Positions 12,490 through 17,088 of a stretch of 64,000 nucleotides of DNA are shown here, in pieces (position 1 is the first letter of the stretch; the number at the start of each line of letters is the position of its first letter). The position numbers and the translations under genes are program-made. The notes under the pieces are model-generated. The model saw nothing but the letters and a program-made list of their open reading frames with translations, made no database searches and was not told the DNA's origin. The stretch spans positions 25,314 to 89,313 of the forward strand of contig JBMNOF010000003.1 of the NCBI GenBank assembly GCA_050942925.1, in the 5' to 3' direction. The DNA comes from Candidatus Spyradocola sp. (GTDB lineage Bacteria > Bacillota > Clostridia > Christensenellales > UBA1750).

Positions 12490-15400
12490 CTACATGCCGC
12501 GGCGGCGGTATTCCGTTGCGATGCGGTCCTCGAGCTTGCGGTAGACGCGATCCACAATGCGCGTGATCTCCGCCGTGCTCAGCTCCTGGGTCTGGACCTT
12601 TTGCTCCACGCGCTTGCGCGCGCGAATCTCCTGGTTGATGGAAGGCGCTTGCCCAGCGCTTTGGCTGGCCAGGCGGCCCGTCGTCTCACCCTGCTCCTTG
12701 AGGACCATCTCCGGCGGGCGGTAGCGCGCGGGCGCGCCGAACTTCTGCTGTGCCTTGCGCAGCAGGTCCAGCGCAGCGCGGCTGCTGTTGCGGTCGGCGC
12801 TGCCCGGCTGTTCGCCCCAGCTCAGATTTCCGACGCGCGGCGCGGGGGCGCCATACGCGTTCATGTAGGTCGGCGGAGCAAACATCACGATCTCCGCGGG
12901 CGAAGTCAGGATCGAAGAGCGGAGACCGCCCTCGCTCTCGCCCGCCATCGCGATGAGCTCCAGCGTGGAGCGCTCGACGCGCTCCTCCCGGCTGTGCACC
13001 AGGAGGGTCATACCCGCTTGGCCCTCGACCGCCGTGCGGAAGGGCTTTCTCCGGCTGTGCATGTCCCGCATCGCCGGGCGAAGGGGCACATACCCCGTGG
13101 GCTGCCGAAGCTGCCGTTCCCGCCGCTCCACCGCCTCCAGCGCCCGGCTCAGCGTCGTGCGCAGTCCGCTTTCTGCGGTGCGCGGACGCCCCATGCCGCG
13201 CGAGGCGCCGGCCTCCAAGGCCTGCCGCGCGGGAATCGCGCCTCCCGCCGCTTCGCTGGGCGCTTCCTGCACTAGCGTCAGGTCTGTGCGGTACATGCTC
13301 TGCCGGTACACGTCCCCCTGCCGCACCGATGTAATGGACCAGGGAGAAGATGCACCCGCCGCGCCCGGTTGTCCCGGTCGGCCAGTCGCGCCGTCTGTTC
13401 CCGAGAACCCGTTAGCCCCCGGAAGCCCTGCAGCTCCCGGAGCGCCGGTCCGACCGTTCGCGCCGCGCTCTCCGCGGCGGCCCGCTGCGCCCATGGCGCC
13501 CGGGCGGCCCACTTCCCGCAGGACGCGCGTCCAGTGCTCCAGGACCCGCTCGCTCAGCGTACGCTCCCGCAGCGGGGCATACGCGCTCGGCACTGAGGCC
13601 GTAGGCGCTGCACTCAGCGCGCCTTCGGGGGCCGGTTCGCTGGACCCGTCCTGCACCAGCGTCAGGTCCGTGCGGTAGACGCTCTGCCGGTACACGTCCC
13701 CCTGCCGCACCGACGTAATGGACCAGGGGGAAGACGCACCCGCCGCACCGGCCGCGCCCGGTTGTCCCGGCCGGCCGTTCGCGCCGCTTGTGCCCGCAGA
13801 ACCGCTCGTCCCCGGAAGCCCTGCTGCTCTCGGAGCGCCGACCTGGCCGTTTGCGCCGCGCTCTCCGCGGCTGCCCGCTGCGCCCACAGCGCCCGGACGG
13901 CCCACTTCCCGCAGAACCTTCGTCCAGTGCTCCAGGACGCGCTTGCTCAGCGTTCGTTCCCGAAGCGGGGAATACGTTCTTGGCGCAGATGTCGCATAGG
14001 CTGCAGGCGCTGCACTCAGCGCGCCTTCGGGGGCCGGTTCGCCGGACTCTTCCTGCACCAGCGTCAGGTCCGTGCGGTACATGCTCTGCCGGTACACGTC
14101 TCCCTGCCGCACCGACGCGATAGGTGAAAGCGTAGTCGCACCAGCCGCGCCCGGTTGTCCCGGTCGGCCAGTCGCACCGCTTGTTCCCGCGGGGCCGCTC
14201 GTGCCCGGAAGCCCTGCGGCTCCCGGAGCGCCAGCCCAGCCATTTGCGCCGCGCTCTCCCCGGCGGCCCGATGCGCCCACAGCGCCCGGGCGGCCCACTT
14301 CCCGCAGCACGCGCGTCCAATGCTCTAGGACACGCTCACTCAGCGTTCGCTCTCGAAGCGGGGAATACGCTCTCGGAACAAAAGTCGCGGGGGCTGCACC
14401 CAGCGCGCCTTCGGGTGCCGGTTCACCGAGCGCTTCCTGCACCAGCGACAGGTCTGTGCGGTAGACGCTCTGCCGGTACACGTCCCCCTGCCGCACTGAT
14501 GTGATGGACCAGGGGGAAGATGCACCCGCCGCGCCAGCCGCGCCCGGTTGTCCTGGTCGGCCGTTTGCGCCGATTGTTCCCGTGGAACCGCTCGTGCCCG
14601 AAAGCCCTGCGGCTCCCGGAGCGCCGACCCGGCCGTTTGCGCCGCGCGCTCCCCGGCGACCCGCTGCGCCCACAGCGCCCGGGCGGCCCACTTCCCGCAG
14701 GACGCGTGTCCAGTGCTCCAGGACGCGCTCGCTCAGCGTGCGTTCCCGCAGCGGGGAATACGCTCTCGGCCCTGAGGCCGTAGGCGCTGCACTCAGCGCG
14801 CCTTCGGGTACCGGTTCGCCGGGCGCTTCCTGCACCAGCGTTAGGTCTGTGCGGTAGACGCTCTGCCGGTACACGTCCCCCTGCCGCACCGATGTGATGG
14901 ACCACGGAGAAGATGCACCCGCCGTCCCAGCCGCGCCCGGTTGTCCAGGCCGGCCGATCGCGCCGTTTGTTCCCGCGGAACCGCTCGTGCCCGGAAGCCC
15001 TGCGGCTCCCGGAATGCCGGCCCGGCCGCTTGCGCCGCGCTCTCCCCGGCGGCCCGATGCGCCCACAGCGCCCGGGCGGCCCACTTCCCGCAGGACGCGC
15101 GTCCAGTGCTCCAGCACCCGCTCGCTCAGCGTGCGTTCCCGAATTGGGGCATACGCGCTCGGCGCAGATGCCGCAGGGGCCGCACTCGTTGCTCCTTCGG
15201 TTGCCGATTCGCCGGGCGCTTCCTGCACCAGCGTTAGGTCTGTGCGGTAGACGCTCTGCCGGTACACGTCTCCCTGCCGCACCGATGTGATGGACCAGGG
15301 GGAAGATGCACCCGCCGTCCCAGCCGCGCCCGGTTGTCCCGGCCGGCCGGTTACGCCGCTTGTGCCTGAGAAGCCGTTAGCCCCCGGAAGCCCTGCCGCT

Positions 15401-17088: not shown

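What the first reader, a model, noticed from the sequence alone, without database searches (positions are those of the whole stretch)
13262..15865. Near-identical 393-bp tandem array: hotspot for copy-number change and assembly collapse
Seen in sequence:
- The period is shown by antisense ORFs starting at 14501, 14894 and 15287 (exactly 393 nt apart), plus 13718 and 15683, with almost identical translations.
- Long identical strings recur at the same period, for example ggtacacgtccccctgccgcaccgatgt.atggacca.gg.gaaga.gcacccgcc.
- Unit length is a multiple of 3, so gain or loss of units keeps the frame.

Inference:
- RecA-dependent or slippage events would add or remove 131-aa modules. If the protein is a ruler, this would change particle length in discrete steps.
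- Short-read assemblies could also misreport the true copy number.
Basis: seen in the sequence. Interest (0 to 1): 0.6.

Follow-up and report, generated by a model that had tools for sequence, protein, structure and literature searches.

The report
Collagen-module repeat array in injection-system ruler gene
The 393-base repeats are real but only 83-92% alike; they encode seven collagen-like modules of the probable length-ruler protein of a phage-tail-like injection machine in an uncultured gut Clostridia bacterium, and relatives show such arrays do change length in frame and do break short-read assemblies.

Summary
The array is real (13247-15865, period 393, 6.7 copies) but not near-identical. 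Units 1-6 are 83-92% identical in DNA and unit 7 about 72%. The longest exact repeat is 90 nt. Between units, dN/dS is 0.22-0.40 and dS is 0.18-0.40.

The array lies inside one 1532-aa minus-strand gene (12490-17088).

The gene is the largest in a complete extracellular contractile injection system (eCIS) and sits in the tape-measure slot. Each 131-aa unit has about 19 Gly-X-Y collagen triplets, a conserved core and a short helix.

Orthologues keep the slot and the N- and C-termini but have different tandem-repeat middles. In a sister species, alleles from strains 98.6-99.3% identical in the flanks are 1161-1357 aa long. They differ by one whole unit and by many indels, mostly whole Gly-X-Y triplets, with no frameshift.

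None of 12 conspecific contigs crosses the array. Two related MAGs split the gene and one scaffold has a 100-N gap in it.

So frame-preserving length change and assembly fragility are supported for the family. The ruler role is inferred.

The scan has noted repeat-built tape-measure-slot genes on other DNA.

The parts
12490..17088 (-). 1532-aa gene (P0001) in the tape-measure slot of the eCIS cluster. It is the largest ORF of the cluster.
   Evidence: ORF list and translation. Pfam Collagen PF01391, E=1.1e-59, 7 stretches. The same slot is kept in all orthologous loci.
13247..15865 (-). 393-bp tandem array, 6.7 copies, 86% matches
   Evidence: Tandem Repeats Finder; repeat families at 393-nt spacing.
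15865..17088 (-). N-terminal domain (residues 1-408): Arg/Ala-rich, pI 11.4. The first ~65-130 residues are conserved across the family.
   Evidence: 55% identity to sister-species proteins. The N-terminal motif is shared with distant members P0014, P0016, P0020, P0024 and P0025. Composition.
15472..15864 (-). Unit 1 (residues 409-539)
   Evidence: Unit parsing and alignment. 92.4% nt identity to unit 2.
15079..15471 (-). Unit 2 (residues 540-670)
14686..15078 (-). Unit 3 (residues 671-801)
14293..14685 (-). Unit 4 (residues 802-932)
13900..14292 (-). Unit 5 (residues 933-1063). It is the most divergent full unit, with one 3-aa deletion and one 3-aa insertion.
13507..13899 (-). Unit 6 (residues 1064-1194). 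One Gly-to-Arg break interrupts its Gly-X-Y run.
13123..13506 (-). Unit 7 (residues 1195-1322), degenerate: the collagen run and core are kept, and the helix part has diverged into the C-terminal domain.
   Evidence: 69-74% nt identity to the other units.
12493..13122 (-). C-terminal domain (residues 1323-1532), the most conserved part of the family. It ends in a confidently predicted helix.
   Evidence: 59-85% identity across genera. A profile finds only 17 cluster representatives among 1.84 billion proteins. AlphaFold2 helix 183-207 has pLDDT about 90.
17150..17581 (-). gp19-type tube paralogue directly upstream of the gene
   Evidence: Pfam PF06841, E=3.7e-23.
18309..18695 (-). Candidate tail assembly chaperone
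   Evidence: PHROG 508 'tail assembly chaperone', E=1.8e-6.
11722..12435 (-). CIS tube / tube-initiator-type protein directly downstream of the gene
   Evidence: Pfam PF19266 CIS_tube, E=2.1e-34.
19348..21144 (-). Tail sheath
   Evidence: Pfam PF04984 and PF17482.
9821..10588 (-). Spike (Phage_base_V OB domain)
   Evidence: Pfam PF04717, E=6.4e-22.

Best explanation
The array is the coding DNA for seven 131-residue modules in the middle of the tape-measure-slot protein of a chromosomal extracellular contractile injection system.

Each module is a ~19-triplet Gly-X-Y collagen run, a conserved core (SVRQGDVYRQSVYRTDLTLVQE), an Ala/Pro/Ser linker and a short amphipathic helix (LSERVLEHWTRVLREV).

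Inferred mechanism:
- The protein is a homotrimer threaded through the tube lumen.
- Its conserved C-terminus is anchored in the tube-initiator/spike hub.
- Its conserved N-terminus lies at the cap end.
- The modular middle acts as a spacer whose length sets tube length.

Over evolutionary time the middle changes length in frame, in two ways. Unequal recombination between units adds or removes whole modules. Slippage in short 18-54-nt sub-repeats adds or removes Gly-X-Y triplets.

In this genome the units have drifted to 83-92% identity under purifying selection. The array is therefore an old, fairly stable product of that process, not a currently hot spot. It still breaks small-k assemblies.
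For: Shown:
- Array and unit anatomy; Pfam Collagen, E=1.1e-59; 129 triplets.
- eCIS context: sheath, three gp19-type tubes, CIS_tube, spike, gp25 and two Baseplate_J genes, plus a Pvc16 cap and an AAA+ ATPase further along the contig.
- The gene is the largest ORF and lies directly upstream of the tube-initiator and spike genes in every orthologous locus. These are the criteria used for the tape-measure-related protein Tme in PMC11126660.
- The ends are conserved and the middle is variable and often tandemly repeated. P0024 has a 426-bp period (3.2 copies, 92% matches) with only 5-6 triplets per unit. P0014 has helical repeats without collagen, and distant members range from 485 to 1327 aa.
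- Within the sister species, flanks are 98.6-99.3% identical while proteins are 1161, 1187, 1307 and 1357 aa. Indels are mostly whole triplets (3, 6, 12, 15, 24, 42 aa), a few are not (1, 2, 13 aa), and one whole unit (162-164 aa) is present or absent.
- Three of these alleles carry no exact repeat of 127 nt or more, so they are probably assembled correctly.
- Units group by species with 100/100 support.
- dN/dS is 0.22-0.40.
- The protein is very basic: pI 11.1, net charge +68.

From the literature:
- The diffocin tape measure is a homotrimer spanning the whole tube (PMC10996793).
- Lengthening or shortening Alg14 changes AlgoCIS particle length, and across CIS the slope is 0.2156 nm per residue (bioRxiv 10.64898/2026.05.27.728243).
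- Tandem units with duplication and loss are known in phage tape measures (PMC3271669; PMC13585406).
Against: - No sequence match to any tape measure family in Pfam or PHROGs. All PHROG hits run through the collagen part and are labelled tail fibre.
- No PDB relative was found.
- Known eCIS tape measures have mainly alpha-helical middles. A collagen middle has no precedent in the papers searched.
- Monomer AlphaFold2 models are of low confidence: pLDDT 53 and 57.
- The candidate chaperone gene is separated from this gene by DUF6760 and two tube paralogues.
- Copy number in other strains of this species is unknown, because no other contig spans the array.
- All comparative alleles come from short-read metagenome assemblies.
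Confidence: 0.6

Rival explanations
1. One reading: the array in this genome is an active hotspot. Copy number varies among cells or strains now, and the assembled count of seven units may be a collapse.
For: - Exact in-register tracts of 24-90 nt exist between units. From general knowledge, this is above the minimal length that RecA needs.
- 55 distinct 55-mers and 14 distinct 77-mers are repeated, so an assembly with k of 55 or less could mis-join.
- No other conspecific contig spans the array.
- One sister-species allele (P0002) has an exact 591-nt repeat at a distance of 588 nt. This is either a very recent duplication or an assembler's guess.
Against: - Units are 8-17% diverged with dS 0.18-0.40, while conspecific strains differ by only 0.5-2.1% in the flanks. 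The youngest surviving duplication is therefore much older than the strain radiation.
- No k-mer of 99 nt or more is repeated.
- No orphan contig of the MAG carries extra units; all matches lie in contig C134.
- Tandem Repeats Finder finds no short-period sub-repeats in the window's collagen runs, unlike the sister species.
Confidence: 0.15
2. The protein is not a ruler. It is a collagen-like fibre or surface appendage of the particle, or a lumen-loaded cargo or effector that happens to sit in that slot. Array length would then tune reach or payload, not tube length.
For: - Every PHROG hit is to collagen-like tail fibre or minor tail proteins.
- Collagen runs are typical of phage fibres.
- Streptomyces systems load tape-measure-related effectors and other proteins into the lumen (PMC11126660 and PMC10066040).
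Against: - The hits come only from the Gly-X-Y part. The N-terminal domain alone matches no PHROG family, and a C-terminal piece matches only through the collagen run of unit 7.
- The C-terminus is the most conserved part. That is the opposite of receptor-binding fibres, whose C-termini vary.
- A separate fibre-like gene sits after the baseplate genes at 1434-3209, with a weak tail fibre PHROG hit, E=3.6e-4.
- No enzyme or toxin domain was found.
- No other tape measure candidate exists in the cluster. The 803-aa ORF next to the ATPase is a spurious extension of a membrane protein gene.
Confidence: 0.2
3. The length differences among sister-species alleles are assembly artefacts of short-read metagenomes, so there is no real polymorphism.
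For: - All alleles are metagenome assemblies.
- One has a 100-N gap in the array.
- One has an exact 588-bp tandem duplicate that short reads cannot count.
- Many contigs end in the array.
Against: - Three alleles (P0003, P0004, P0005) come from different samples. Two record names point to different assemblers (SPAdes-style NODE and MEGAHIT-style k141). None has a repeated k-mer of 127 nt or more, and two have none of 99 nt or more.
- All remain in frame over 3.5-4.1 kb.
- They differ by many separate, mostly triplet-preserving indels plus point differences. Random mis-joins would not produce this pattern.
Confidence: 0.1

Closest known systems
Tape measure proteins of contractile tails and eCIS (Afp14/Pvc14/Alg14 = 'Cis14', diffocin CD1366, T4 gp29, P2 gpT)
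   Same: - It is the largest gene of the tail cluster and lies just upstream of the tube-initiator and spike genes.
- The ends are conserved and the middle varies in length.
- A homotrimer is expected: the diffocin tape measure is a trimer along the whole tube (PMC10996793), and a collagen helix is also a trimer.
- Changing Alg14 length changes particle length (bioRxiv 10.64898/2026.05.27.728243).
   Different: - There is no detectable sequence homology.
- The middle is built from Gly-X-Y collagen runs with short cores, not long alpha-helices.
- The family is very rare: 17 cluster representatives among 1.84 billion proteins.
- Neither the lumen location nor the ruler function has been tested.
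Phage tape measure proteins with tandem units (Belcaid et al. 2011, PMC3271669; TP901-1, PMC5099701; Moreno-Rodriguez et al. 2026, PMC13585406)
   Same: In-frame tandem units are gained and lost during evolution, and related genomes differ in unit number.
   Different: Those units are short helical motifs marked by Trp or Phe, with an 11-residue period and blocks such as 44 residues. Here the unit is 131 residues and contains a collagen run. A second, finer level of variation acts through the Gly-X-Y triplet count.
Bacterial and phage collagen-like proteins (Pfam PF01391: Scl1/Scl2, BclA, phage collagen-like tail fibres)
   Same: Uninterrupted Gly-X-Y runs of 18-19 triplets sit next to a short helix that could start trimer formation. 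The triplet number varies between strains, as in Scl and BclA (from general knowledge).
   Different: Those proteins are surface or fibre proteins with one collagen stalk and a variable globular head. Here seven short collagen runs alternate with conserved cores, inside a protein whose C-terminus is the conserved part and whose gene sits in the tube-lumen slot.
Tme, the tape-measure-related effector of Streptomyces davawensis CIS (PMC11126660)
   Same: It is the largest ORF directly upstream of the baseplate genes in a non-Afp-type CIS, and it was assigned by the same positional logic.
   Different: Tme has transmembrane helices, a DUF4157 domain and a C-terminal nuclease. P0001 has none of these.

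Membership tests
Tape measure protein of contractile tails / eCIS (Cis14) | Gene lies between the tube/chaperone genes and the tube-initiator/hub/spike genes | tested here: met
   Pfam on the neighbours. The same order holds in seven related loci.
Tape measure protein of contractile tails / eCIS (Cis14) | Largest ORF of the tail cluster | tested here: met
   1532 aa against 983 aa for the next largest gene.
Tape measure protein of contractile tails / eCIS (Cis14) | Sequence match to a described tape measure family | tested here: not met
   Pfam gives only Collagen above its cut-off. PHROG hits are collagen-driven fibre families. PDB searches find nothing.
Tape measure protein of contractile tails / eCIS (Cis14) | Long, mainly alpha-helical or coiled-coil central region | tested here: not met
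   The middle holds 129 Gly-X-Y triplets plus cores. Only one 16-residue helix per unit is predicted.
Tape measure protein of contractile tails / eCIS (Cis14) | Conserved C-terminus that docks in the baseplate hub | tested here: inconclusive
   Strong conservation is shown and a confident terminal helix is predicted. Docking itself cannot be tested here.
Tape measure protein of contractile tails / eCIS (Cis14) | Trimer inside the tube lumen, with protein length setting particle length | not testable with these tools
   This needs particles, cryo-EM and unit-deletion mutants.
Extracellular contractile injection system (Afp/PVC-like) | Sheath, tube, gp25, Baseplate_J and spike genes plus a Pvc16/Afp16 cap and an Afp15-type AAA+ ATPase, with no capsid or packaging genes nearby | tested here: met
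   and (Pvc16_N E=6.9e-23; AAA E=8e-30). The flanks are chromosomal genes (CAP, QueT, WYL; alanine racemase), and the upstream flank is conserved in the sister species.
Collagen-like proteins (PF01391) | Uninterrupted Gly-X-Y runs long enough for a triple helix | tested here: met
   Seven stretches, E=1.1e-59. Runs are 18-19 triplets, with one Gly-to-Arg break in unit 6. Triple-helix formation itself is not tested.
Phage collagen-like tail fibre | Conserved N-terminal attachment part and variable C-terminal receptor-binding part, encoded after the baseplate genes | tested here: not met
   The C-terminus is the most conserved part. The gene lies before the baseplate genes. A separate fibre-like gene lies after them.
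Contingency locus / actively variable tandem repeat | Near-identical repeat units (about 98% or more) and length heterogeneity within a population | tested here: not met
   Units are 83-92% identical.

The most novel reading that the evidence does not exclude
This rare clostridial eCIS lineage has replaced the usual helical tape measure with a chain of short collagen triple helices. A collagen helix is trimeric, like a tape measure, and rises about twice as far per residue as an alpha-helix. Strains of one species tune particle length, and with it cargo capacity, by gaining or losing Gly-X-Y triplets and whole 131-196-residue modules. That would be a natural population-level length polymorphism of an injection machine.
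Probability: 0.35. Interest if true: 0.75.

Novelty: new variant of a known kind. Interest (0 to 1): 0.5.

Why it matters
Tail and particle length is one of the few quantitative traits of phage-tail-like machines that a single gene is known to set. Engineered eCIS show that length also sets cargo capacity (bioRxiv 10.64898/2026.05.27.728243).

A natural ruler built from collagen modules whose number and triplet count differ between strains would matter in three ways:
- It would be a new structural solution for a tape measure.
- It would give a ready-made modular part for tuning the length of engineered injection systems.
- It would show that particle length is polymorphic within a gut species.

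There is also a practical point. These arrays break or gap short-read assemblies, so such genes are under-represented and mis-sized in MAG catalogues.

Tried and rejected
- Search for other full-length alleles of the window's own species: the metagenome scan found only one 79%-identical fragment. Exact look-ups of the two neighbouring proteins found 13 contigs, 12 of them conspecific (97.9-100% identical). All stop at or before the array edges.
- The plus-strand ORFs were rejected as genes. They are antisense shadows of the minus-strand gene.
- The 803-aa ORF between the cap and ATPase genes was considered as an Afp14-position tape measure. It was rejected because its first ~470 residues read as low-complexity Arg/Gly/Ala sequence and the real gene is a membrane protein starting at an internal Met. 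It has no PHROG or Pfam hit.
- PDB sequence searches with the C-terminal domain, alone and as a profile, found nothing.
- AlphaFold2 models of one unit and of the C-terminal domain had pLDDT 53 and 57. They were too poor for a fold search, so none was run.
- A C-terminal-domain profile search across 400 genomes of the class found only the window's own genome.
- Literature searches for a collagen-like tape measure found none.
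Full report
**1. The observation**

Tandem Repeats Finder reports one array at 13247-15865: period 393, 6.7 copies, 86% matches, 2% indels, score 3597. The quoted 56-nt string recurs six times with at most two mismatches, against none in 100 shuffles. The repeat is therefore real and far beyond chance.

It is not near-identical. I cut the coding strand into seven units and aligned them by codon.
- Units 1-6 are 82.6-92.4% identical in DNA (78-92% in protein). 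Unit 7 is 69-74% identical to the others.
- The longest exact direct repeat in the whole gene is 90 nt.
- 55 distinct 55-mers and 14 distinct 77-mers are repeated, but no k-mer of 99 nt or more.
- Between units, dN/dS is 0.22-0.40 and dS is 0.18-0.40. The copies are old and under purifying selection.

**2. What the array encodes**

The array lies inside a single 1532-aa ORF on the minus strand, 12490-17088. The plus-strand ORFs are antisense shadows of this GC-rich gene.

The protein has three parts:
- an Arg/Ala-rich N-terminal domain (residues 1-408);
- seven units of 131 residues;
- a 210-residue C-terminal domain.

Each unit holds 18-19 Gly-X-Y triplets, a conserved core (SPWSITSVRQGDVYRQSVYRTDLTLVQE), an Ala/Pro/Ser linker and a short helix (LRERTLSERVLEHWTRVLREV). 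Pfam Collagen matches seven times (E=1.1e-59), and there are 129 triplets in all. The protein is very basic, with pI 11.1 and net charge +68.

**3. Context**

The gene sits in a minus-strand cluster, in this order:
- sheath (19348-21144);
- gp19-type tube (18820-19305);
- a protein matching a tail assembly chaperone family (18309-18695);
- two more gp19-type paralogues (17578-18114 and 17150-17581);
- this gene;
- a CIS_tube protein (11722-12435);
- a hub-like protein (10585-11679);
- a Phage_base_V spike (9821-10588);
- gp25 (9367-9864);
- two Baseplate_J proteins, a P2_I-like protein and a fibre-like protein (1434-3209).

Further along the same contig lie a Pvc16-type cap gene and an AAA+ ATPase gene. 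No capsid or packaging genes flank the cluster. [quoted passage not shown]

The genome is a 2.54-Mb MAG in 172 contigs. Its relatives are labelled uncultured Clostridia. The only other long ORF that could have been an Afp14-position tape measure (803 aa, next to the ATPase) is a spurious extension of a membrane protein gene.

**4. The family**

A profile of the C-terminal domain finds only 17 cluster representatives among 1.84 billion proteins. It finds no genome but the window's own among 400 sampled across the class.

Members share the first ~65-130 residues and the last ~100-200 residues. Their middles differ completely:
- collagen modules here and in the sister species;
- P0024, which has a 426-bp period (3.2 copies, 92% matches) with only 5-6 triplets per unit;
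- P0025, which has one collagen block plus three or four cores;
- P0014, which has helical tandem repeats without collagen;
- distant members of 485-1327 aa overall.

Every orthologue whose locus I could read lies in the same slot, between the third tube paralogue and the CIS_tube gene.

This combination is the pattern of a tape measure protein: conserved ends, a middle free in sequence but repetitive, the largest ORF, and a position just upstream of the hub genes. The two positional features are among the criteria Nagakubo et al. used for Tme (PMC11126660).

Against membership:
- there is no sequence match to any described tape measure family;
- the middle is not helical, whereas known eCIS tape measures are mainly alpha-helical there.

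**5. Does the array change length?**

For this species I could not tell.

For the sister species the answer is yes. It shares the same chromosomal neighbours (CAP, QueT and WYL genes).
- Four complete alleles from different samples are 98.6-99.3% identical in 3 kb of downstream flank and 97.6-99.4% identical in the N- and C-terminal domains.
- They encode 1161, 1187, 1307 and 1357 residues.
- They carry 4-5 units, with collagen segments of 65-149 residues.
- Aligned, they differ by one whole unit (162-164 aa) and by many indels. Most indels are whole Gly-X-Y triplets (3, 6, 12, 15, 24, 42 aa) and a few are not (1, 2, 13 aa). None causes a frameshift.
- One allele has lost 30 aa of its first core in frame.
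- Their collagen DNA carries 18-, 36- and 54-nt sub-repeats, which are a substrate for slippage.
- Three alleles have no repeated k-mer of 127 nt or more, so mis-assembly is an unlikely cause.
- The fourth allele has an exact 591-nt repeat at a distance of 588 nt. Its copy count cannot be trusted.

On a tree of unit cores, all window units form one clade and all sister-species units form another, each with 100/100 support. Arrays have therefore been rebuilt or homogenised since the species split.

In the window, by contrast, the youngest pair (units 1 and 2) is 7.6% diverged, while conspecific strains differ by 0.5-2.1%. No duplication here is recent. Deletions cannot be excluded.

**6. Assembly**

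- Twelve conspecific contigs from at least eight samples all end at or before the array edges. Examples are window positions 15716, 15722, 15808 and 15870 on one side and 13326 and 13206 on the other.
- Two of these contigs are 100% identical to the window and come from one run, SRR31066337. This is probably the source sample or the same strain.
- Two related MAGs have the gene split over two contigs each.
- One sister-species scaffold has a 100-N gap inside the array.

From my own knowledge, Logan contigs are built with k=31, so breaks there are expected.

For the window itself, collapse is unlikely if the assembler reached a k of 99 or more. No orphan contig of the MAG carries extra units. 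Without reads this is not proven.

**7. Mechanism**

Shown:
- the module anatomy;
- the slot;
- the conserved ends;
- in-frame length polymorphism in a sister species;
- purifying selection on the units.

From the literature:
- The diffocin tape measure is a homotrimer spanning the whole tube (PMC10996793).
- Alg14 length sets AlgoCIS particle length, and across CIS the slope is 0.2156 nm per residue.
- Phage tape measures carry tandem units that are duplicated and lost (PMC3271669 and PMC13585406).

Inferred:
- P0001 is a trimer in the tube lumen. Each collagen run forms a triple helix started by the adjacent helix.
- One unit would add about 27 nm, taking 57 residues at 0.286 nm and 74 at 0.15 nm. 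The empirical slope gives about 28 nm.
- The 196-residue spread among sister-species alleles would correspond to about 40 nm of particle length.

Monomer AlphaFold2 models were of low confidence: pLDDT 53 for a unit and 57 for the C-terminal domain. Only the unit helix and the last helix were predicted well. This is expected for an obligate trimeric fibre, but it is no support for the model.

**8. Verdict**

The array is real, but its units are diverged.
Frame-preserving unit and triplet changes, and assembly fragility, are shown in relatives. An active hotspot in this genome is unlikely and untested. The ruler role is well motivated but inferred.
- Tandem units in tape measures are a known kind. 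Collagen modules in that slot appear to be new, since the literature searches found none.
- Earlier notes of this scan had already flagged this gene and repeat-built tape-measure-slot genes on other DNA.

Noticed in passing
L014:4518-5696 (sister-species allele P0002): There is an exact 591-nt direct repeat at a distance of 588 nt, which amounts to a perfect tandem duplication of one 196-aa unit. It is either a very recent duplication or the assembler's guess at the copy number.
   Followed up: partly
L011:10001-13924 (sister-species allele P0005): The first unit has lost 30 aa of its core (PPRIAQVRQGDVYRQ...AEGEP) in frame, between two short EP motifs. The other three alleles keep it.
   Followed up: partly
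window 13821-13823 (unit 6, residue ~1087): A single Gly-to-Arg change breaks the Gly-X-Y run of unit 6 (GAPRAAGLPG). It is the only such break in the seven collagen runs. It could be tolerated, or it could be a sequencing error.
   Followed up: no
L013:9970-19901 (same contig, just upstream of window position 1): The cluster continues with a HAMP-domain membrane protein, a MORN-repeat protein, an OEP-like protein, a Pvc16-type cap, a membrane protein and an AAA+ ATPase. The membrane proteins suggest the machine may work attached to the cell envelope.
   Followed up: partly
L018:9218-9637: In the more distant relative that carries P0025, a GNAT acetyltransferase gene is inserted between the spike and gp25 genes. 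It is absent from the window and from the other loci.
   Followed up: no
L011:3279-3947 and L012:3279-3947, against window ~22980-23250: The sister species has a divergently oriented TetR-family gene between the WYL regulator and the first gene of the cluster. The window's species lacks it (L026 and L027 lack it too).
   Followed up: no
window ~18130-18280 (minus strand): Orthologous loci carry a 48-aa DUF6760 gene between the chaperone-like gene and the second tube paralogue. The window has room for it there, but I did not annotate it.
   Followed up: no
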